This document shows, in pieces, positions 5,894 through 26,788 of a stretch of 64,000 bases of DNA. A model generated the notes under the pieces. It did not search any database and was not told the DNA's origin. It was given only the letters and a program-made list of their open reading frames with translations. A program made the position numbers and the translations under genes. Origin of the DNA: Candidatus Thorarchaeota archaeon (lineage in GTDB: Archaea; Asgardarchaeota; Thorarchaeia; Thorarchaeales; Thorarchaeaceae); contig RDOC01000004.1 in NCBI GenBank assembly GCA_011364985.1, forward strand, positions 152,218 through 216,217, written 5' to 3'. The first letter of the stretch is position 1; every line of letters starts with the position of its first letter.

Positions 5894-7279
5894 TTACATA
5901 CCCCCAACTGGTACTTGACGGATTCTTGCATGTGGACCACCACTATTGTCCGGTACCATCTGACCATCCTTTCTACATGTGCCGGCTTCCATTTCAAAAT
6001 CCTTTGCTACTGCATCGATCTTCGGCAAAATGTCCAAAATCTGCCCAGCCAGAGAAACATCCCGAACCATTTGTCCAATCTCGCCGTTCTCAATTAGATA
6101 GCCATGACTCGCCTGAAACATAAACTGGCCCTTGGAAGGTTCTGTATAACCATAGTTGAAATTGCATAGCAACATACCAGTTCCCATGTCCTGCATAAGT
6201 TCATCAACATCCCAATCGCCTGGTTCCATCATCGTGTTTGACATCCTTGGGAGGGGCTCGAACATAAACGACTGGGCTCTTCCAGCACCATTGGGCTCCA
6301 TGCCCAAGCGTGATGCGGTTTCAAGTGTATGTAGTAATTCTCTAAGAATTCCGCCCTTGACAAGTAAACGTTTCTTAGTCTTTGTTCCCTCCCAGTCGAA
6401 CTCATAAGTGCCTCTCTGTCCCTCCATTGTGGGATCATCGCTGAGGTTCAGATGTCCGGGACCGACCATTTTCCCGAGTTTGTCTTCTAAAACAGTGGTG
6501 TGTGCAGGCCAATTATCGGCTTCACATGCATGCCCAAACGCTTCATGAACCATAACTCCATTGAGAACTGGGTCCACTATGACATCATATGTCCCACCTT
6601 TTGCGGCAACAGAAGAAAGTAGGTCAATGGCGTTCCTTGCTGATTCTTCCCCTAGATTCTGAGGCCGCTCAAGGCTGTAGACTTCAAAACCACCACGAAT
6701 CCCGAAGGACTTGAATGATCTTTGACGACTGCTACCGTCCTTGGCAGTTGATACTGATATCACTCTTGGAAGTGAGTTCTCCATCCAAACACTTGTCCCA
6801 AATGAGTTTGCTGTATATCTCTCAGTCCATAAGTCTCCATAGACTGTTCGCGTGTTCACAATCCTTTTGTCAAAGCTTCGTGCTTGGTCATTAATCATCT
6901 TAACATAAGCCATCTTCTCTTCAAATGTGACATCCGCAAAGGGCACCTTGACCTTGAATCGAACCCTGTCTTTGAAGACTGGACCTTCCATCTCAAACTT
7001 CTCAGCAACCTTGGTCTTTGTTGCAAGGGCCAATTTGCCAACAGATTCTCCCGTTTCTCTCATACCACCAGTAGTTAGATCGGTGGTCTGTGCAAAAGCC
7101 CATGCGCCATCAATGAAAGCGCGGATTCCAGCTCCTTTCAGCCTTGACGCAAGAGAATCCTTCGAAACGCCATCAGTGATTTCGATGATTGTTGTCACTG
7201 TATTCTCGATTCGTACATCAGCGAAGGTTGCTCCAACATCAAGAGCAGCATCAATGGCAGCTTGAGCAAGGTCTTCCAT
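5894..7279 (-). CDS. tldD: TldD metalloprotease
   Basis: HEAFGHACEAD zinc motif, FDWEG, PRMSNT, C-terminal CRKDGQ..P..GGP; likely start at MEDLAQ (7279). Confidence 0.93.
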   Translation of the reverse strand: MEDLAQAAIDAALDVGATFADVRIENTVTTIIEITDGVSKDSLASRLKGAGIRAFIDGAWAFAQTTDLTTGGMRETGESVGKLALATKTKVAEKFEMEGPVFKDRVRFKVKVPFADVTFEEKMAYVKMINDQARSFDKRIVNTRTVYGDLWTERYTANSFGTSVWMENSLPRVISVSTAKDGSSRQRSFKSFGIRGGFEVYSLERPQNLGEESARNAIDLLSSVAAKGGTYDVIVDPVLNGVMVHEAFGHACEADNWPAHTTVLEDKLGKMVGPGHLNLSDDPTMEGQRGTYEFDWEGTKTKKRLLVKGGILRELLHTLETASRLGMEPNGAGRAQSFMFEPLPRMSNTMMEPGDWDVDELMQDMGTGMLLCNFNYGYTEPSKGQFMFQASHGYLIENGEIGQMVRDVSLAGQILDILPKIDAVAKDFEMEAGTCRKDGQMVPDNSGGPHARIRQVPVGGM

Positions 7280-7460
7280 GGAAAAATCCCCTCTGAAGTT
7301 GAACAATGCGGCTTTCTATTCGATTATAACTTATGCGGACAGGGAAATTTTGCCAGCAGCATGTCTGAAAGAATTCTGAAAGGCATAAAGGTACTAATAC
7401 CGAGGTTATACACACGTTATTCTGTGATATGTCAGTCATCATTACAATGGAGGAAGCTAC

Positions 7461-9017
7461 GTGAGCCTAGATTCTGCACATCTGTGTTGTCAAAAATGCA
7501 ATCAGAACAGAGCCAGTCATCTCTGTGAAGATTGCGGGAGCATTTTTTGCAACACCTGCATAGAAAGCAGAAACAACGATTACATGATGTGCAAGGACTG
7601 TCACTACCCAATTGATAACTCTTCTCAAGGAGAAGAGATTCTAGAGTGCCCCGAGTGTGGTTCCAAAAATCTAACTAAAGCGCGAAGAACCGAGGATATC
7701 TGCCCTCAATGCCATTCTGGTAAAATCACATTAGTGGAGGAAAAGAGGCGTTCACTTGCACAAGAAATGCGCCATGCTGTGATGACACTGCATTATGGTC
7801 CTACTAAACTAAAGGAATTCGGGAATAGACTTGATTCTGCAAAGAGAACTCTCGTATCATTGCGGATGGCAAATTTTCTGCATTATCATTGGCTCGAAGA
7901 TAAGCTCGAGGAGATTCAAGAAGAACTTCCAGCCATTAAGAATAGAATCACCAATCAAGGAGAGATAATCGCGAAACGAATGGCTGCAGAAACAAAGGGA
8001 CTTATGGATTATAATCGATGGACGCCTGACCAGTTCCCTTTCATTGAAGGGGTTACAAATAGAATATCAGAGATCGGAAGGCAGTACAAGCAGAATACAG
8101 ATGATGCATTTCAGGATTGTAAGGCGAAGCTGAAGGAACTTGTCGAACAGCTGGATGGCCTCAATTTCTATCGATCAGAATTCTCGGCCTTCTATGAACA
8201 TGTAGACCTATCTGTGGGCGAGCTTCCTGTTTGCGCACTGCCCGAAGTCAAGGTTATCGGTAGTGACTTTTTGAAACACGACAAAGCATCTGGAACGCTC
8301 TATATGACAAATAAGCGGTTGATACTCATTGCAGAAAGAGGCCTTCTCTGGAAGAACACAGGACCAGTATTTGACTTCCCCTTAATTTACCTGAACAGTC
8401 TTGAAGAAGATGGGAGATTCAGAAAAAAGCTTGTCCTAAGAATGAAGCAGGGATATATCCGAATATCCTGCAGTGAGGAGACTATGGAGGTCCTTCCGGA
8501 TTATGTGTCAATTGCAAAAAGATTCGACAAGTACGTGCAAAAAGATATGCAGAGAGTCCGAAAGATTGAGCAAGCCAACGTCAATATCAGCGATGTAAGA
8601 ATGAAGATAGAGAGTCTGGTCTACTCCCTTTTGACAGGAGATTTGGATTCTGGATACTACGGAGGACGTATAGATTCATTTGAATATCGTCCGGACATCA
8701 GGCATGGTGAACGTGGCCATTATGGAAGTGATTATGGCCGCCAAGATGTGCTGAAAGAAGAACTGAACAGAAGATTTGGCCTTGGAGGAAATGGCAGCGA
8801 TGCATCTCAATATGAATATGCTAGTTCCATTGACTCTTTGAAGAGGAGTGCCATAGAAATCCAAGATGCAATCCACGACACCATCCGTATGATGAGAAGC
8901 GGTCACCTTGTTGCGGAGGACTTCATTCGAAGATATCGTGGACTTGTTAGAGACTCATACGAAACCCAAAAGCAGATTGAACGAATTGATAGAACGAAAC
9001 ACGGATATGGTTGGTAG
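7461..9017 (+). CDS. Multi-Zn-finger/B-box + coiled-coil + PH/GRAM(GLUE)-like + Vps23/TSG101 steadiness-box-like protein (ESCRT-I-like)
   Basis: Six CxxC pairs in the first ~85 aa; long heptad region; GTLYMTNKRLIL PH/GRAM-type strands; C-terminal AIEIQDAIHDTIRMMRSGHLVAEDFIRRYRGLVRDSY resembles the TSG101 steadiness box; adjacent to ESCRT genes. Confidence 0.7.
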   Translation: MSLDSAHLCCQKCNQNRASHLCEDCGSIFCNTCIESRNNDYMMCKDCHYPIDNSSQGEEILECPECGSKNLTKARRTEDICPQCHSGKITLVEEKRRSLAQEMRHAVMTLHYGPTKLKEFGNRLDSAKRTLVSLRMANFLHYHWLEDKLEEIQEELPAIKNRITNQGEIIAKRMAAETKGLMDYNRWTPDQFPFIEGVTNRISEIGRQYKQNTDDAFQDCKAKLKELVEQLDGLNFYRSEFSAFYEHVDLSVGELPVCALPEVKVIGSDFLKHDKASGTLYMTNKRLILIAERGLLWKNTGPVFDFPLIYLNSLEEDGRFRKKLVLRMKQGYIRISCSEETMEVLPDYVSIAKRFDKYVQKDMQRVRKIEQANVNISDVRMKIESLVYSLLTGDLDSGYYGGRIDSFEYRPDIRHGERGHYGSDYGRQDVLKEELNRRFGLGGNGSDASQYEYASSIDSLKRSAIEIQDAIHDTIRMMRSGHLVAEDFIRRYRGLVRDSYETQKQIERIDRTKHGYGW

Positions 9018-9638
9018 TTATATACCTAGTTCTTTCTCTAGTTCCTTAATATCTTCCTCAAGCGTACCTATATCTGTGTCAGCTGTCATTTCGGCAGTTC
9101 TTTCTGCCAGCCCTGCCTCAACATCGAGCTCATGCATTGCCGTGGTGAGGTCCTCTGAGGAAACATCCATTGACGCATCAAGGGCATCTGATGATATGCT
9201 GCTTTCAATTTCAAGCTCCTCAAGACGCCGGGAAATCTCATCAGCATTCTCTACTAATCTTGTGGCTTCAGTTGCGTCACCGAGCATCCCAAGCAGCTTT
9301 GCCACTTCCTGAAGCGCAATATTCGTTTTGGCTGATGTTTGGGCACGGTTTAGATGTGCAAGAATCTTAAGAATCTGGAGCCTAGATTTGTCAAAGGACA
9401 AGGCAAGTCGTCGGAAGCGAATCATCTCTGTGGCATAGGTTTTGAACGCTTCACCTTGACCAGCCTTTCTGGCTCTTATGGCCCGAGCTCTTGTCTCGCC
9501 CTCCTCTTTCTCAAGCTTGTTTCGTTCACGTGCAAGCTGCTTTGCCAAGATTCGTAGTTGACTAGAGATTTCTCCAACGTCGGGTTTTTTACGCCCCCAG
9601 GAGAAGGCCTTTCTAAACGAACTCAAGAGTTTCACCAC
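9018..9638 (-). CDS. ESCRT-III (Snf7 family, Vps2/24/46-like)
   Basis: Basic helical N-half with amphipathic start, KTYATEMIRFRR pattern, acidic C-half, terminal LEEDIKELEKELGI MIM1-like helix; next to vps4. Confidence 0.9.
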   Translation of the reverse strand: MVKLLSSFRKAFSWGRKKPDVGEISSQLRILAKQLARERNKLEKEEGETRARAIRARKAGQGEAFKTYATEMIRFRRLALSFDKSRLQILKILAHLNRAQTSAKTNIALQEVAKLLGMLGDATEATRLVENADEISRRLEELEIESSISSDALDASMDVSSEDLTTAMHELDVEAGLAERTAEMTADTDIGTLEEDIKELEKELGI

Positions 9639-9817
9639 ATACCGAACTGGACGAACAAGACTAGAAGTAATGCTTCTCGTTTAAACCTTCGTAGAGCTGC
9701 TTATCCTCCTTATACGAATCTGCACCTTGCATATTAAGATTAGCGCAGATTGTGGCGTCTAGGAACAGGTTTAGAAAGCTTTTCGAAGATATCACTGATA
9801 ACAGAGTGTGATTAGTC

Positions 9818-10066
9818 ATGGCATATGGAGCAGAGAGTGCAGCTATTGCGGCACAACATACGAGTTCCTACCGAGTCAAGTTCGAGAGAAACGAATTCCT
9901 AGAGCTGGTGCAAATAGCACAGCCGCAAATCATCTATCATGTGCGAAGAATGCATTTCTTTGCATACGATGGCTTTGTCATGTATACCTTCGAGTGCGAG
10001 TCTGAGGATTTCAGCCAGAAAGTGATGCATGCCATCGAATTCTCAAATATGGCGTGGAGGGAATAA
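9818..10066 (+). CDS. Small hypothetical protein within the ESCRT locus
   Basis: 82-aa ORF with protein-like composition filling the gap upstream of vps4. Confidence 0.65.
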   Translation: MAYGAESAAIAAQHTSSYRVKFERNEFLELVQIAQPQIIYHVRRMHFFAYDGFVMYTFECESEDFSQKVMHAIEFSNMAWRE

Positions 10067-10213
10067 CTAGCAGCCGATACGATGGTCAGCGGAAGCAAGT
10101 ACATCTTTGCGTTACTGTGTAATCATTGAACCATTACGCGCTCAGAATGAAATTGGGAAGAAAGTGGTAAGAGAAGTTATTAACATGGATTTATCTCATT
10201 ATTCTGAACAGGA

Positions 10214-11431
10214 ATGTCTGATAGACTAGACCAAGGACTCAGGAACCTCCTTAACAAAGCAATTGATCTTGATAGAAGAGGAATGGCAAAGGAGGCTGCC
10301 CAATACTATCTAAAGGCTAGCAAGATCTTGATCAAGCTCTCAAACGCGGCTTCATTGCCGTCTATACAGAAGCACTATCTTGATAGAGCGCAGGAGTGCG
10401 TTGATAGGGTCCGTTACATCTCAGGCATAAAGAAGAAGGCTAGAGGGCTAAGAAACGGGCTTACGACCCCAGTATCCCCAATGCCACATTCAGAATCCGA
10501 GGCAGTTGCTGAGCACGCTCCGCAGGCAGATGCGGAAGTTGATGAAGACACTCGTAGGCTTCAGGAGATGATATCTGATACCATTATCTCGGAGAAGCCC
10601 AATATCAAGATGAGTGAAGTGGCTGGACTTGAGAAGGCGAAACAGGCAATTCATGACGCAATTATAGCACCTATGAAGCATCCTGAACTCTTCAAGGGCA
10701 AGGCAAGACAACCATGGAGAGGTATTTTATTTTACGGGCCAGCAGGTTGCGGAAAGACCCTGATAGCTAAAGCTGTTGCGTCTGAAATTGATGCGACTTT
10801 CTTCAATGTATCAGCGGGTAATATTGTTAGCAAGTGGTTGGGAGAATCAGAGAAATTGGTGATGAATCTCTTTGATTTGGCAAGAAGAAGCCAGCCGGCG
10901 ATCATTTTCATGGATGAGCTCGATTCAGTTGGAGTATCAAGATCAGGAGATGATGTAGGAGGAGAAAGAAGGCTGAAGACTCAGCTGCTTACGGAACTCC
11001 AGGGTCTTGAAAGCGATCCAGAGGAGAGAATAACCGTCATAGGTGCTACAAATCTGCCATGGGAACTTGACTTTGCCTTACGGTCTCGATTTGAGAAGAA
11101 GATTCAAGTTCCACTTCCGGACAATGAGGCAAGGACACACATCTTTGAAATACATATGGAAGAGGTCAAAATTGCTCCAGAAGTCGATTATGAGGAATTG
11201 GCGGACCTAAGCGAGGGTTATAGCGGCCGCGAGATTAGCGTCGTCTGTAGAGAGGCGGCAATGGAGCCCATAAGAGATCTGCAGCGTACAGGCAGACTAG
11301 ATGACGGAGAGGTAATACTAGAGGTGCGCCCTGTTTCAAGAGAAGATTTTCTTGAGGCCATTGAAGACATCCGTCCAGCAACCTCACCAGAAGACTTGAG
11401 AAGATACACCGATTGGGCGGAGGGGTCCTAG
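10214..11431 (+). CDS. vps4: Vps4-like AAA ATPase with MIT domain
   Basis: N-terminal MIT (AIDLD..G..KEAAQYY), GPAGCGKT, SKWLGESEKLV pore loop, FMDE, GATNLPWELD, C-terminal Vps4-type helix. Confidence 0.93.
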   Translation: MSDRLDQGLRNLLNKAIDLDRRGMAKEAAQYYLKASKILIKLSNAASLPSIQKHYLDRAQECVDRVRYISGIKKKARGLRNGLTTPVSPMPHSESEAVAEHAPQADAEVDEDTRRLQEMISDTIISEKPNIKMSEVAGLEKAKQAIHDAIIAPMKHPELFKGKARQPWRGILFYGPAGCGKTLIAKAVASEIDATFFNVSAGNIVSKWLGESEKLVMNLFDLARRSQPAIIFMDELDSVGVSRSGDDVGGERRLKTQLLTELQGLESDPEERITVIGATNLPWELDFALRSRFEKKIQVPLPDNEARTHIFEIHMEEVKIAPEVDYEELADLSEGYSGREISVVCREAAMEPIRDLQRTGRLDDGEVILEVRPVSREDFLEAIEDIRPATSPEDLRRYTDWAEGS

Positions 11432-11434
11432 GCT

Positions 11435-12154
11435 GTGGACGTCAAGGAACGACGTAGAGAGCGAAAAAACACAAAGTCAGCAGAAGAAGAACGACCAAGA
11501 AAGACCGAAGGAGAGACCATAGAAAAGGAGGAGAAGACAGGAGATCAATCCAGTACGATCATGGCACTAACGGAAAGAACAACCCAGGCCACTCAGCGCC
11601 AGCTTGAAATACTGCCCACCGAAACCGTTGTGGAGGAGATCGATGAAGAGATACTACTCCCAGACTGGGGAGACATCACTCAAAGCGAATGGATGTATAG
11701 TATTCCGGACAGAGAAAAAGACAAACCAATGTGGGCAGAGGAATGGAGCGACTTTCTCTTGGAGTGGACAAAGAAAAAACACATTCACGTGATTTCTGTT
11801 TCCTTGTTCCTCAGCGAGCCACCTTTCAAAGACATTGCTGGGAAGGTAGATTCGTTTCGATGCATCGGTGAAGTTCTTGTAAAGAAGGAAATTGCCGAAT
11901 GGCTGGATAAGAATCGACGACAGCTTCGAGTCTATTGGAGATTTCTAGAAGAGTGGGCAGATTCTGTTTATCGATGGGCACTGGAAAGCGGGACAGTTCG
12001 ACTTGATGTGAAGTCAATAGTAATTCAAGAAGAGGCCCAAGCATTTTCGAATCTTCCAGAGAGAGACCTCCATATCATCATGACACTCCTCGTAGAGAAA
12101 CAACTGGCGGAATGGATTGACAAGAAGAAAGGTGCTATCAAAATCCTACTTTGA
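11435..12154 (+). CDS. vps25: ESCRT-II Vps25-like tandem winged-helix protein
   Basis: WAEEWSDFLLEW and VYWRFLEEWADSVYRWA motifs typical of Vps25; 3 nt downstream of vps4. Confidence 0.85.
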   Translation: MDVKERRRERKNTKSAEEERPRKTEGETIEKEEKTGDQSSTIMALTERTTQATQRQLEILPTETVVEEIDEEILLPDWGDITQSEWMYSIPDREKDKPMWAEEWSDFLLEWTKKKHIHVISVSLFLSEPPFKDIAGKVDSFRCIGEVLVKKEIAEWLDKNRRQLRVYWRFLEEWADSVYRWALESGTVRLDVKSIVIQEEAQAFSNLPERDLHIIMTLLVEKQLAEWIDKKKGAIKILL

Positions 12155-12194
12155 ACGGCAGTAGCCGAAGATTGCTGTGTGGCATGCTGCTATG

Positions 12195-12947
12195 TCATTT
12201 GGCAATATGACCATCTTGGCTATCACGTGCCCTCAAGCCTGGGAAATAGTACCGCCCACCAGTGGAGAATTTGATATCTGCGACAGCCATGCCTGCGTCA
12301 ACAAGACTAGACAGGACCCTTCGAGCATGATCCTCAGACCATTTCAGTTTGATCATGACTTCTTCAACTGAAACATAGCCCTTGGAAGCCGCCAGATTAA
12401 CCACATCGCTTTGATCTTCTCGTAACTCAAGAGGGCGTAATTCGACAACTTTCACGCCACCTTTTAGAACACGAATTCCAGGGATTAGACCATGATCGGA
12501 AACCCGATTGACAGCCTCGATCACATCGCTGTAGCTCACACCCTTTATCTCCGGCAATCGTTTCACAACTTCCACGATTAAGTCAGCCAGCCCCATTAGC
12601 CCCTTTGAAGCATTTGCAGTGGCAACATCAAGTATTGCAAGTCCTATGAAATCATAATACTCGTCTTGCGTCAATCCATGATGAAAAAGGACTCCCTGCC
12701 TACGGTCCATATTTAGCATCCGAATAGCGTCAGGAAACCGCTCATACACGCGTTCTGTATCCAAGAACGCTGTAATGCTCATGCCAGTCCGTCGCAATTC
12801 AGCAATACTTGACTTGAGTTCCATAACAAGTGCTTCGGACTCTCGTTGAAAGGACCTAATGTCAACTACACCCATGTCGTACATCTTCCTAAGCTGATCA
12901 AGAGTAGCAAGTGATGCGTAGAACTCGGTTTGTAGTCGGCTTTGCAT
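12195..12947 (-). CDS. Fusion of Vps28 N-terminal-like domain and Vps22/36 (EAP30) winged-helix domain
   Basis: EFYASLATLDQLRKMY..F..E...L...ITAF..RFPDAIRML (Vps28-N-like) followed by YYDFIGLAIL...PLELREDQ..KGYVS...LKWS..A..VL..LV..G...YYFPGL (EAP30); likely start MQSRL at 12947. Confidence 0.8.
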   Translation of the reverse strand: MQSRLQTEFYASLATLDQLRKMYDMGVVDIRSFQRESEALVMELKSSIAELRRTGMSITAFLDTERVYERFPDAIRMLNMDRRQGVLFHHGLTQDEYYDFIGLAILDVATANASKGLMGLADLIVEVVKRLPEIKGVSYSDVIEAVNRVSDHGLIPGIRVLKGGVKVVELRPLELREDQSDVVNLAASKGYVSVEEVMIKLKWSEDHARRVLSSLVDAGMAVADIKFSTGGRYYFPGLRARDSQDGHIAK

Positions 12948-13098
12948 GGGTTGGAATCCCTTCATTCCTATGGCTGACCCAGACTGGGCATACCAAGGGA
13001 TGAGCAAGAATGTGCTTTAAGAGAGAGTATTATCCGATTATGGTTCAATAGGAAGTAGTCCCATCCAGCTGCAATGTATCTTTGGACGATGAAGAGTA

Positions 13099-14466
13099 CT
13101 AGGGGGTAATTCTGTCTCGGTCTCTTGGTAGAAGAATTGCTTCACGAATATTCTCAATGTCTAGCAGCTGCATGGTCAAACGCTCCACTCCCAAACCCAG
13201 ACCACCGTGAGGTGGCGCACCGAATTTGAAAGGATCTAGGTAGAAACTGAAGTCGGCAGGATTGAATCCTTTGACTCGAAACCGTTCCACCAGCAGGTCA
13301 TATAGATGAATTCGTTGGCTACCTGTTGTGATCTCCATGCCCTTGTAGGTCAGATCGAAGCTTTCTGTCATCCCTTCGTCTGTAAGACTTGGCATTGTAT
13401 AGGCAGGTCTCAACTCCAGCGGATAATGAGTGATGAATACCATTTCTGTACCGAATTTCCTAGGAAATATTTCGCCAAGCAAGCGCTCACCTTCTGGGTC
13501 GACATCATCAGTAATCGACATCTCTTTCCCTTCTTGATTGAGCAAATCAATTACTTTTGCGTACTTAATTCGCTTGAAGGGTAGTTTCGGAATCTCAAGC
13601 TTGACTCCGAGTAGTTCAAGCTCTGCTGCTGCTGCTTGTGCGGTGTTCTTGAATGCGTGACGGAGCATCTTCTCCTCCATTTTCATGACATCGTCGACAT
13701 CGCCAATCCATGCCATCTCAAAGTCAAAAGATGTGTACTCATTGATATGACGCCGCGTGTTATGCTTTTCTGCACGGAAGACCGGGGCAATCTCAAAGAC
13801 TCGTCCGAACCCAGCCAATAACATGAGTTGCTTGTAGAATTGCGGGCTTTGAGCAAGGTAGGCTTTCTTCTCGAAGTACTTCACCTCAAAAAGATTGGCT
13901 CCGCCTTCTGTGGCTTCTGCGACAATCTTTGGTGTGTGTATTTCGATAAATCCGTTCCTCTCTAGGAAATCCCTAGCAAACCGGACTAGTGAATGTTGAA
14001 TACGGAATATTGCATTAACTGCGGGCTTACGGAGGTCGAGTATTCTATGATTCAAACGAGTGTCTAAATCGATATCGACTTTGCCTTCGACCACATCAAT
14101 GGGAAGCCGTTCTGCTGTATTGATTACTTTGATCTTCTTGGGAATCACCTCAGCCCCAGTCGCGACCTGTTTCGCTTCAACAACATCCCCACAAACAAGC
14201 ACTACGTACTCTGGTTTCAGTTCGCCGGAAATTGCAAATACCTCACCAGTGACTTTCTTCTCAGGAATTGTCACCTGAACTAGTCCGTGTTCGTCTCTGA
14301 GGATGAGAAACTTGATTCTTCCCTTGTCCCGAAGGATATGAACCCAACCAAGAAGAGTGACTTCGATACCAGCAAGCGAAGGGCCAATCTCACTACTGAA
14401 ATGAGTTCGTTTGTCTTTTCCAAGAGGCTCGACACCGGCTTTCGCATAGAAATCCATAGAATTCAT
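13099..14466 (-). CDS. aspS: Aspartate--tRNA ligase (archaeal type)
   Basis: OB fold [50 protein letters not shown]. Confidence 0.95.
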
Positions 14467-25597: not shown

Positions 25598-26788
25598 GTG
25601 GTGGCATTGAGCGGTAGAAGAAAGCTTGTCCTCTTTGACCAAACGCAGAACGAACGTGGAAGGTTAGATACGACCTATTCCGACTTGGGAGAACTTCTCA
25701 GAGATAATGATTTCGATGTAGAGCCTTATACTGAGTTCATGCTTCTAGCAAAGAATTTGAGTAACGCAGATGTGCTGGTCTTCGGATGCCCAAATAGCTC
25801 GAAGCTAAGACCAGCAGAAATTGATGTGCTGAAGAGATTCGTTCAAAAGGGAGGGGGCTTGATGCTGCTTTCGCTCTCGGGAGGAGACCGAGGCCTAATG
25901 AACAACATGAGCCAAATCTCAAAAGGCTTTGGCATTAGCTTTGAGAATACCGCGGTAAAGGATGAAAGAAGTAACGCAGGCTTACCTACAATGCCCCTGA
26001 TTTCAAACATAGCCCCACACCCAACAACGGTTGATGTAAACGACATTTTGGTGCCATCGGCTTGCACACTCTCGGTGAGCGAAAATGCAAAGGCTATTGC
26101 AACGACTTCGGAAACGGCGGAACCATCCAATAAGCCAGTAATAGCCATCGCAGAAAGTGGAAAAGGCAGAGTGCTTTGCTCAGGAAGCTATGAGATCTTC
26201 AGAAGAGGTGGAGGTCTAAAGCACCAAGGCAACAAGGTTCTTGCTGTAAATGCCTTCAAGTGGCTAAGCGGAGAAGTCACGGTCGCCAAACCAAGCAAGG
26301 TTGCTGAATCCCAGAGAAAAGATTCGGACAAGGAATCCAAGACTCCTAAAGGTACAAAGATGGAAACTTCCCCGGAGATTGAAGCAACACTTCGTAGGCT
26401 TGTTAATGCAGTATTCGACCTTCAGAAGGATATATCAAAGGTTACAAAAGAAACAGAGAAGATTGAAAAGAATATTGAAAAGCTCAGGAACCAGTTTCAG
26501 GATTTTGCAGAAAAGACACAATCGCAACTTGGAGTAATGATTCCTGCAAAACAATTCAAGACGGAAGAAGAAAACCGCATGGCGGAGCTTGAAGGAGATA
26601 TCAAGGCGCTGAGGAAGGAAATTGACTCGGTTCAACAGCTTCGAAACCATATTGAGGAACGCCACTCTGCTGCAGCAATGCCCAAAGAAACCTATGAGGA
26701 GCAGGCAAAGAAACTTGATACACGAATGAAAAGTCTTGAGGAGAAACTGGCAAAGAGAGAGATGGAACTCGCCGACTTGGTCTCTTGA
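25598..26788 (+). CDS. GIFT/IFT52-like (class I GATase-like) domain + C-terminal coiled coil
   Basis: VLFDQTQNE, DVLVFGCP, EIDVLKRFVQKGGGL, GKGRVLCSGSYEIF, N...A.NAFKWL; heptad-rich C-terminal ~140 aa; no signal peptide. Confidence 0.7.
   Translation: MVALSGRRKLVLFDQTQNERGRLDTTYSDLGELLRDNDFDVEPYTEFMLLAKNLSNADVLVFGCPNSSKLRPAEIDVLKRFVQKGGGLMLLSLSGGDRGLMNNMSQISKGFGISFENTAVKDERSNAGLPTMPLISNIAPHPTTVDVNDILVPSACTLSVSENAKAIATTSETAEPSNKPVIAIAESGKGRVLCSGSYEIFRRGGGLKHQGNKVLAVNAFKWLSGEVTVAKPSKVAESQRKDSDKESKTPKGTKMETSPEIEATLRRLVNAVFDLQKDISKVTKETEKIEKNIEKLRNQFQDFAEKTQSQLGVMIPAKQFKTEEENRMAELEGDIKALRKEIDSVQQLRNHIEERHSAAAMPKETYEEQAKKLDTRMKSLEEKLAKREMELADLVS

What the first reader, a model, noticed from the sequence alone, without database searches (positions are those of the whole stretch)
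7461..13007. Compact, domain-shuffled ESCRT-I/II/III-Vps4 locus lacking ubiquitin genes and a second ESCRT-III
Seen: six genes in mixed orientation (+,-,+,+,+,-) covering ESCRT-I-like, ESCRT-II, one Vps2/24/46-type ESCRT-III and Vps4. No ubiquitin, E1/E2 or Vps20/32/60-type gene is in the window. Known: Asgard ESCRT clusters exist, and Vps25 normally nucleates Vps20-class ESCRT-III. Inference: the locus encodes a minimal membrane-remodelling pathway with two fusion adaptors, and the Vps20/32-type partner is either elsewhere or bypassed.
Basis: partly seen in the sequence, partly recalled or inferred. Interest (0 to 1): 0.75.

Follow-up and report, generated by a model that had tools for sequence, protein, structure and literature searches.

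The report
Standard Thorarchaeial ESCRT gene cluster
This is the ordinary, already published five-gene ESCRT membrane-remodelling cluster of Thorarchaeia (Asgard archaea that lack ubiquitin); the "missing" second ESCRT-III gene lies at another locus in relatives, and that whole region has no counterpart in this roughly half-sized draft genome, and the sixth gene is an unrelated small gene that moved into the cluster.

Summary
Window 7461-13007 carries six ORFs in the order +,-,+,+,+,-. Five are ESCRT genes: a Zn-ribbon/coiled-coil/PH/steadiness-box protein, ESCRT-IIIA (Vps2/24/46 class), Vps4, Vps25, and a Vps28-N-like hairpin fused to Vps22.

No ubiquitin, E2/UEV, E1 or second Snf7 gene was found in the window or in the rest of the assembly.

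None of this is new:
- Gene order, including the flanking genes, is the same in sister genomes.
- The proteins match ThorAB25_08990 to 09030 of Hatano et al. 2022 and the Znr_CC_PH_SB and SB-Vps22 families of Makarova et al. 2024.
- The lack of ubiquitin and UEV in Thorarchaeia is published. I reproduced it: 0 of 25 genomes of this order, against 13 of 15 other Asgard genomes.

The Vps20/32/60-class partner (ESCRT-IIIB) sits at a separate conserved locus in 20 of 24 family genomes. That whole region has no counterpart in this 1.7-Mb, 74%-complete assembly. Its absence is therefore most likely an assembly gap, not a bypass.

The sixth gene (82 aa) belongs to a widespread, unannotated archaeal family. 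It entered the ESCRT-IIIA/Vps4 spacer only in this lineage.

This scan had already found the same cluster four times on other genomes. Interest is low.

The parts
7461..9017 (+). ESCRT-I-like adaptor of the Znr_CC_PH_SB type (518 aa): three Zn ribbons, a three-helix stalk, a PH-like domain, a disordered linker and a C-terminal steadiness-box-like helical hairpin
   Evidence: AF2 model, pLDDT 75: strands 1-91, helices 92-240, sandwich 256-336 with helix 339-371, hairpin 448-514 at pLDDT about 90. Cys pairs are invariant across 43 homologues. The 120 homologues listed (of 168 at E<=0.001) are about 410-570 aa, and the named ones are mostly labelled Thorarchaeota. Foldseek gives only weak helical-plus-PH matches. 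The C-terminal profile weakly matches the yeast Vps23 headpiece, E 0.3-1.2. It is the orthologue of ThorAB25_08990|SB and matches cog.011556 of Makarova 2024.
9018..9638 (-). ESCRT-IIIA (Vps2/24/46 class Snf7-family protein, 206 aa) with an acidic, Leu-spaced C-terminal helix (candidate MIM)
   Evidence: PF03357 at 30.2 bits. Best PDB hits are CHMP2A and CHMP1B. In seven other Asgard genomes with a tandem ESCRT-III pair, one member matches this protein better than P0004, the relatives' ESCRT-IIIB, and P0004 is the only query to hit the other member. It is 59-72% identical to the in-cluster gene of G004, G015, G003 and G024.
9700..10203 (.). Lineage-specific 504-bp insert in the ESCRT-IIIA/Vps4 divergent spacer; the spacer is 86 bp in G004
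   Evidence: blastn of the spacer against relatives. All same-genus species representatives in which both flanks matched show the short spacer.
9818..10066 (+). 82-aa gene of a widespread, unannotated archaeal family; not an ESCRT component by any test made here
   Evidence: 1231 homologous clusters. 79 loci in genomes labelled Thorarchaeota, Bathyarchaeia, Heimdall-, Hod-, Hermod- and Brockarchaeota at 54-87% identity. No ESCRT gene within 3 kb in any of them and no conserved neighbour. No hit in Pfam, NCBIfam, PHROGs or the Atlas. AF2 model poor, pLDDT 51.
10214..11431 (+). Vps4 AAA+ ATPase (405 aa; MIT, AAA, lid, Vps4_C)
   Evidence: Pfam. It is the only ~400-aa Vps4_C-bearing ORF in each of five family genomes; the other hits are ~730-750-aa ORFs. 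76-85% identical to relatives.
11435..12154 (+). Vps25 (239 aa): charged, low-complexity N-terminal ~70 residues followed by tandem winged helices
   Evidence: PF05871 at 51 bits. PDB 7pb9 'Tandem WH domains of Vps25' at E 2.5e-29, and human Vps25. Single copy in five genomes.
12195..13007 (-). SB-Vps22: a Vps28-N-like helical hairpin fused to a Vps22/EAP30 tandem winged-helix core (ORF 270 aa; likely real start at 12965, giving 256 aa)
   Evidence: PF04157 at 49.6 bits, residues 112-244. Human SNF8 at E 1.7e-15. The family profile matches SNF8 at 5.6e-20, and its positions 6-70 match the yeast Vps28 N-domain at E 0.11-0.19. The PF03997 VPS28 profile, positions 2-71, hits the N-terminus of the G024 orthologue. 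Orthologue of ThorAB25_09030|Vps22.

Best explanation
This is the canonical ESCRT locus of Thorarchaeia.

Shown here: the identity of the five ESCRT proteins, their conserved gene order, and the lineage-wide lack of detectable ubiquitin and E2/UEV genes.

Inferred mechanism:
1. The Zn-ribbon/stalk/PH protein sits on the membrane through its PH-like domain. Its Zn ribbons replace the ubiquitin-binding UEV head as the input end.
2. Its C-terminal hairpin (Vps23-SB-like) packs against the Vps28-N-like hairpin at the N-terminus of Vps22. ESCRT-I and ESCRT-II are thus joined directly, without a separate Vps28-Vps36 bridge.
3. Vps22, reported to self-associate, binds Vps25.
4. Vps25 nucleates ESCRT-IIIB, which in sister genomes is encoded at a different locus.
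5. ESCRT-IIIB recruits the in-cluster ESCRT-IIIA.
6. Vps4 binds the ESCRT-III C-terminal helices through its MIT domain and remodels the polymer.

The apparent lack of a second ESCRT-III in this genome most likely reflects incomplete assembly. The 82-aa gene is a relocated passenger.
For: - Domain calls.
- Synteny: the order TFB, ArgRS, TldD x2, adaptor, IIIA, Vps4, Vps25, Vps22, AspRS, hydrolase, methylase is conserved in G004 and G015; G024 (another genus) shows the same order from TFB through AspRS.
- Architecture of the 518-aa protein.
- Second ESCRT-III: 20 of 24 family genomes have two Snf7 genes on different contigs or far apart. The four with only one are 62-77% complete; two of them lack one class and two lack the other.
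- The second gene is ESCRT-IIIB: its best PDB hit is Heimdall ESCRT-IIIB, and the class pattern is reciprocal in seven other Asgard genomes.
- Its locus (HAD hydrolase, IIIB, inositol monophosphatase) is syntenic in G004, G015 and G024.
- None of its ~15 neighbours has an orthologue in this assembly, and only 3 of 156 ORFs of the 171-kb G004 contig do.
- Ubiquitin is found in 0 of 25 genomes of this order against 13 of 15 other Asgard genomes. UQ_con is above cut-off in none of the 25 against 13 of 15.
- Published support: Thorarchaeota lack ubiquitin; the free-standing SB protein may interact with Vps28; Vps22 self-interacts; Vps25 interacts with ESCRT-IIIB in yeast two-hybrid assays. Thorarchaeia lack UEV-Vps23. 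Znr_CC_PH_SB and SB-fused Vps22 are described. The ThorAB25 sequences are listed in the supplement.
Against: - The SB assignments rest on a confident predicted hairpin plus weak profile matches (E 0.1-1.2).
- The direct profile-profile comparison of the two hairpins was insignificant.
- No complex was modelled here.
- I could not prove that the ESCRT-IIIB region is unassembled rather than deleted. Ten large ORFs of the G004 contig included no essential marker, and the completeness-scaled genome size (about 2.3 Mb) is smaller than that of relatives.
- No experiment shows what membrane process the system serves.
Confidence: 0.85

Rival explanations
1. This lineage really runs a one-ESCRT-III pathway. 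ESCRT-IIIB was lost, and Vps25 or the ESCRT-I/II adaptors engage ESCRT-IIIA directly.
For: - Only one Snf7 in the assembly by profile search and by tblastn with the relatives' IIIB.
- Hatano et al. report yeast two-hybrid hints of ESCRT-I/II to ESCRT-III contacts that bypass Vps25 in Thorarchaeota.
- The completeness-scaled genome size is smaller than in relatives.
Against: - The assembly is 74% complete and about half the size of same-genus genomes.
- The whole conserved IIIB neighbourhood is missing, not just the gene: none of its ~15 neighbours has an orthologue here, and only 3 of 156 ORFs on the 171-kb G004 contig do.
- Every family genome at 92% completeness or more has both classes.
- Other incomplete genomes lack either class at random.
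Confidence: 0.08
2. The 82-aa gene has been recruited as a new accessory of the ESCRT system in this sub-lineage and is co-expressed with Vps4 and Vps25.
For: - It lies 147 bp upstream of Vps4 and on the same strand.
- By locus-tag order on one 77-kb contig, the nearest relative appears to share the arrangement: EAX95_07940 is the adaptor and EAX95_07950 the 82-aa homologue.
- The protein is strongly conserved, with 31 invariant columns of 82.
Against: - In 79 other loci from several phyla it is never within 3 kb of an ESCRT gene and has no constant neighbour.
- Every one of the 16 other species of the genus in which the spacer could be read has the short spacer; where they have the gene, it lies on another contig.
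- The family is abundant in genomes labelled Bathyarchaeia; I did not test these for ESCRT genes. From my own knowledge they lack the Asgard-type ESCRT-I/II.
Confidence: 0.05
3. The cluster works mainly in cell division, like the Cdv system of the TACK archaea, rather than in cargo sorting or vesicle budding.
For: - No ubiquitin or UEV cargo-recognition module.
- ESCRT-III plus Vps4 drive division in Sulfolobales. This is established knowledge, summarised in the paper read.
Against: - No CdvA-like gene turned up in the Pfam scans of the cluster and its flanking genes.
- The presence of ESCRT-I-like and ESCRT-II parts with a PH-like membrane module resembles the sorting pathway.
- Nothing here tests either role.
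Confidence: 0.25

Closest known systems
Thorarchaeote AB_25 ESCRT cluster ThorAB25_08990 (SB), ESCRT-IIIA, Vps4, 09020 (Vps25), 09030 (Vps22); Hatano et al. 2022, Nat Commun, PMC9192718
   Same: Same five proteins. The family consensus of the 518-aa and 256-aa proteins reads almost letter for letter like the printed ThorAB25_08990 and ThorAB25_09030 sequences. The paper also states that no ubiquitin is found in this lineage.
   Different: Here an 82-aa unrelated gene sits in the ESCRT-IIIA/Vps4 spacer. The sequence is 51-59% identical to same-family genomes in the adaptor and 76-85% in Vps4.
Znr_CC_PH_SB (Asgard cog.011556) and SB-fused Vps22 (cog.002769); Makarova et al. 2024, mBio, PMC10936438
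   Same: The predicted domain order matches: Zn ribbons, coiled coil, PH, SB hairpin. So does the N-terminal hairpin fused to the tandem winged helices of Vps22.
   Different: None found. This is a member of those families.
Eukaryotic ESCRT-I headpiece (Vps23, Vps28, Vps37; PDB 2CAZ, 2F66, 2P22) and ESCRT-II (Vps22, Vps36, two Vps25; PDB 3CUQ)
   Same: The hairpin of the adaptor weakly matches the Vps23 headpiece, and the hairpin of Vps22 weakly matches the Vps28 N-domain in the same crystal entries. Vps22 and Vps25 match human SNF8 and Vps25.
   Different: No UEV domain, Vps37, Mvb12 or Vps36, and no Vps28 C-domain in the cluster. The Vps28-N-like hairpin is fused directly to Vps22. Zn ribbons and a PH-like domain sit on the Vps23-like protein instead of on Vps36.
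Ubiquitin-ESCRT clusters of Odin-, Loki-, Hel- and Heimdallarchaeia
   Same: Both ESCRT-III classes, Vps4, Vps25 and Vps22-like proteins.
   Different: In those genomes ubiquitin, E2/UEV and Vps28 are present, often close to the ESCRT genes, and IIIA and IIIB are tandem. In this family IIIB is split off to another locus, and ubiquitin and UEV are not found.

Membership tests
Thorarchaeial five-gene ESCRT cluster (Hatano 2022) | Gene content and order: SB adaptor, ESCRT-IIIA, Vps4, Vps25, Vps22 | tested here: met
   The order and the flanking genes are the same in G004, G015 and G024.
Thorarchaeial five-gene ESCRT cluster (Hatano 2022) | Orthology to ThorAB25_08990 and ThorAB25_09030 | tested here: met
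   The sequences printed in the supplement agree with the family consensus of A1 and A3. The comparison was by eye, not by alignment.
ESCRT-III, Vps2/24/46 class (ESCRT-IIIA) | Snf7-family core above the Pfam cut-off, and closer to CHMP2/CHMP1 than to the Snf7/CHMP4 class | tested here: met
   PF03357 at 30.2 bits against 27.3. PDB ranking. Reciprocal class pattern in tandem Asgard pairs.
Vps4 | N-terminal MIT, a single AAA+ cassette and the Vps4_C domain | tested here: met
   AAA at 135 bits and Vps4_C at 26.8 bits, both above cut-off. MIT at 22.8 bits is below its cut-off of 30 but at the expected position, residues 11-69.
ESCRT-II (Vps25 and Vps22) | Tandem winged-helix cores matching PF05871 and PF04157 | tested here: met
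   51.1 and 49.6 bits. PDB 7pb9 at E 2.5e-29 and SNF8 at E 1.7e-15.
Znr_CC_PH_SB (cog.011556) | Three Zn ribbons, a coiled coil and a PH domain | tested here: met
   Five invariant CxxC pairs and a sixth nearly invariant. AF2 helices 92-240 and sandwich 256-336 with a capping helix. Only weak PH-containing Foldseek matches, E 6e-3 or worse.
Znr_CC_PH_SB (cog.011556) | C-terminal steadiness box homologous to the ESCRT-I headpiece | tested here: inconclusive
   The hairpin at 448-514 is confident. Sequence matches to the yeast Vps23 headpiece are only E 0.3-1.2. hhalign against the Vps22 hairpin gave a probability below 1%.
Asgard ubiquitin-coupled ESCRT pathway | Ubiquitin and a UEV/E2-variant reader encoded in the genome | tested here: not met
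   Not found in this assembly. No ubiquitin match (E<=0.01), and no UQ_con match above cut-off, in any of 25 genomes of the order, against 13 of 15 other Asgard genomes.
Complete Asgard ESCRT-III pair | An ESCRT-IIIB (Vps20/32/60 class) gene in the same genome | tested here: inconclusive
   Not found in this assembly. The locus region has no counterpart here, and the assembly is 74% complete.

The most novel reading that the evidence does not exclude
In this sub-lineage a member of a strongly conserved, unannotated 82-aa archaeal protein family has been captured into the ESCRT-IIIA/Vps4 control region and acts with the ESCRT system. Alternatively, the lineage truly lost ESCRT-IIIB and runs on a single ESCRT-III class.
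Probability: 0.06. Interest if true: 0.5.

Novelty: already known. Interest (0 to 1): 0.12.

Why it matters
It matters little beyond confirmation. The locus is one more copy of a published cluster. That cluster shows how an Asgard lineage without ubiquitin wires ESCRT-I-like and ESCRT-II parts together through fused helical hairpins.

The useful outcome is negative. The 'single ESCRT-III' reading should not be taken from this draft genome. Sister genomes keep the Vps20/32/60-class partner at another locus, and that region has no counterpart in this incomplete assembly.

The only local peculiarity is the relocated 82-aa gene. Its family is widespread in genomes labelled Thorarchaeota and Bathyarchaeia, and it has no annotation.

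Tried and rejected
I could not fetch the EAX95 contig, so its shared arrangement rests on locus-tag order only.
- The AF2 model of the 82-aa protein was too poor (pLDDT 51) for a fold search.
- The Atlas, Pfam, NCBIfam and PHROGs gave nothing for the 82-aa protein.
- Foldseek of the full 518-aa model gave only weak DH-PH and PH matches.
- hhalign of the two hairpin-bearing families was insignificant.
- Rfam found no RNA family in 7000-13500.
- The weak second Snf7 hit in the window (26417-26656) is the coiled coil of an IFT52-GIFT-domain protein, not an ESCRT-III.
- G003, listed as one contig and showing a single Snf7, is an N-spaced concatenation of contigs. It says nothing about loss.
- Pfam on ten large ORFs of the G004 contig that carries ESCRT-IIIB found no essential marker gene. 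That test could not separate 'unassembled' from 'deleted'.

Full report
**What is there.** Pfam assigns four of them above its curated cut-offs:
- 9018-9638 (-): Snf7.
- 10214-11431 (+): Vps4, with AAA, lid and Vps4_C above cut-off and a sub-threshold MIT at the N-terminus.
- 11435-12154 (+): ESCRT-II/Vps25.
- 12195-13007 (-): EAP30.

Solved-structure searches sharpen these calls.
- The Snf7 protein ranks CHMP2A and CHMP1B first, so it is of the Vps2/24/46 class, or ESCRT-IIIA.
- The 239-aa protein matches an Asgard Vps25 tandem winged-helix structure at E 2.5e-29.
- The 270-aa protein matches human SNF8/Vps22 at E 1.7e-15.
- The flanking genes are housekeeping genes: two TldD/PmbA genes, ArgRS, TFB and AspRS.

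**The two adaptors.**
- The 518-aa protein has no significant Pfam domain. It has 168 homologues at E<=0.001; the 120 listed are about 410-570 aa, and the named ones are mostly labelled Thorarchaeota. Five CxxC pairs are invariant and a sixth is nearly invariant.
- An AF2 model (pLDDT 75) shows Zn ribbons (1-91), three long helices (92-240), a PH-like sandwich with a capping helix (256-371), a disordered linker, and a confident C-terminal helical hairpin at 448-514.
- Foldseek finds only weak matches, all to helical-plus-PH proteins.
- The family profile weakly matches the Vps23 chain of three yeast ESCRT-I core entries over that hairpin, at E 0.3-1.2.
- The Vps22 family profile matches SNF8 at 5.6e-20. 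Its first ~70 positions match the Vps28 chain of the same ESCRT-I core entries at E 0.11-0.19. The Pfam VPS28 model hits the same N-terminal region in the G024 orthologue.
- These weak matches are mutually coherent but not significant singly. A direct profile-profile comparison of the two hairpins was insignificant.
- The architectures are those published as Znr_CC_PH_SB (cog.011556) and SB-fused Vps22 (cog.002769) by Makarova et al. 2024.

**It is the standard cluster.**
- The order TFB, ArgRS, TldD, TldD, adaptor, ESCRT-IIIA, Vps4, Vps25, Vps22, AspRS, hydrolase, methylase recurs in two same-genus genomes. G024, of another genus of the family, shows the same order from TFB through AspRS. Protein identity is 51-94%.
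- Supplementary file 4 of Hatano et al. 2022 prints ThorAB25_08990|SB, ThorAB25_09020|Vps25 and ThorAB25_09030|Vps22. The two sequences shown read like the consensus of my alignments.
- This scan has reported the same cluster four times on other genomes. I re-tested those conclusions here rather than relying on them.

**Ubiquitin.**
- No ubiquitin, UQ_con or ThiF gene above cut-off is in this assembly.
- Ubiquitin is found in 0 of 25 genomes of this order, against 13 of 15 genomes of other Asgard families.
- UQ_con is above cut-off in none of the 25, against 13 of 15.
- This reproduces published statements: Thorarchaeota lack ubiquitin and lack UEV-Vps23.

**The second ESCRT-III.**
- Twenty of 24 family genomes have two Snf7 genes at separate places. 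The four with only one are 62-77% complete; two of them lack one class and two lack the other.
- The second gene ranks Heimdall ESCRT-IIIB and yeast Snf7 among its best solved relatives.
- In seven other Asgard genomes with a tandem ESCRT-III pair, one member matches the window protein better than the relatives' second gene, and that second gene is the only query to hit the other member.
- In Thorarchaeial relatives ESCRT-IIIB lies between a HAD hydrolase and an inositol monophosphatase, in a neighbourhood that is syntenic across genera.
- None of about 15 neighbouring genes has an orthologue in this assembly. Only 3 of 156 ORFs on the 171-kb G004 contig do. That contig also carries a weak Vps28-like 411-aa gene.
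- The assembly is 1.7 Mb and 74% complete, while same-genus genomes are 3-4 Mb.
- The simplest reading is that the region was not assembled. I could not exclude a real deletion, because ten large ORFs of that contig are not essential markers.
- G003, seemingly a one-contig genome with a single Snf7, is a concatenation with 100-N spacers.

**No alternative ESCRT-I/II set.** Five family genomes each show one Vps25, one EAP30 above cut-off and one Vps4.

**The sixth gene.**
- The 82-aa ORF (9818-10066) is a real gene. It is 62-83% identical across 11 family genomes; a twelfth, weak match (35%, E 0.002) lies in a genome of another family of the order. It has 31 invariant columns of 82 and 1231 homologous clusters.
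- Seventy-nine loci at 54-87% identity come from genomes labelled Thorarchaeota, Bathyarchaeia, Heimdall-, Hod-, Hermod- and Brockarchaeota.
- None of those loci has an ESCRT gene within 3 kb, and no neighbour is conserved.
- In this genome the ESCRT-IIIA/Vps4 spacer carries a 504-bp insert, where G004 has 86 bp. Every other species of the genus in which both flanks matched has the short spacer.
- In G004 the gene lies in a roughly 7-kb variable segment, whose conserved flanks are about 2.5 kb apart in this genome.
- The nearest database relative appears to share the new position, judged from locus tags EAX95_07940 and EAX95_07950 on one 77-kb contig.
- The function is unknown and the AF2 model was poor. 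I treat the gene as a relocated passenger.

**Mechanism.** The parts list, the synteny and the absence of ubiquitin and UEV are shown. The following steps are inferred from the architectures and from published two-hybrid data:
1. The PH-like domain anchors the adaptor on the membrane.
2. The Vps23-like hairpin pairs with the Vps28-N-like hairpin of Vps22.
3. A Vps22 dimer with Vps25 nucleates ESCRT-IIIB.
4. ESCRT-IIIB recruits ESCRT-IIIA.
5. Vps4 recycles the polymer through MIT-MIM contacts.

What the Zn ribbons recognise in place of ubiquitin is unknown. So is whether the system serves division or budding.

**Verdict.** Interest is low.

Noticed in passing
window 9818-10066 (+); loci L042-L120: An unannotated 82-aa protein family is conserved at 54-87% identity across genomes labelled Thorarchaeota, Bathyarchaeia, Heimdall-, Hod-, Hermod- and Brockarchaeota. 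It is always a stand-alone gene with variable neighbours. No Pfam, NCBIfam or PHROGs family matches it.
   Followed up: partly
window 7461-9017 (+): The gene call on record for this contig (P0005, 427 aa) starts about 91 codons too late and cuts off the three Zn ribbons. Homologues of 518-525 aa align from residue 1.
   Followed up: yes
window 25598-26788 (+): A 396-aa protein has an N-terminal IFT52 GIFT domain (E 4.7e-16) and a C-terminal coiled coil. This eukaryote-flavoured domain gave the spurious weak second Snf7 hit.
   Followed up: no
G004:C3:132398-133633 (L040:7399-8634, -) and same-genus counterparts: A 411-aa protein has a weak full-length VPS28 match (E 1e-5 to 4e-3 in 14 of 16 same-genus genomes) and a faint BAR-like stretch. 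It is encoded far from the ESCRT cluster, next to a D-aminoacyl-tRNA deacylase gene. Its locus has no counterpart in this assembly.
   Followed up: partly
L008 (G025) versus family f1 loci L030 and L031: In the one genome of the sister family of the same order, and in other Asgard classes, ESCRT-IIIA and ESCRT-IIIB are tandem. In this family ESCRT-IIIB is separated to a distant locus.
   Followed up: partly
G004:C52:11334-11831, G015:C2:98367-98753, G024:C1:66979-67518: Sub-threshold EAP30-like winged-helix matches lie inside 693-aa and 779-791-aa ORFs of relatives. None was seen in this assembly and they were not characterised.
   Followed up: no
L033 (G003:C1:2140000-2156000), 8915-9014: The 'single-contig' same-genus genome G003 is a concatenation with 100-N spacers. 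Its Vps4 gene is cut after 21 codons at such a spacer.
   Followed up: yes
G012:C199:8594-8821 and G012:C138:4151-4347: The Vps4 5' end and spacer occur on two contigs of G012. This suggests strain heterogeneity or duplication in that bin.
   Followed up: no
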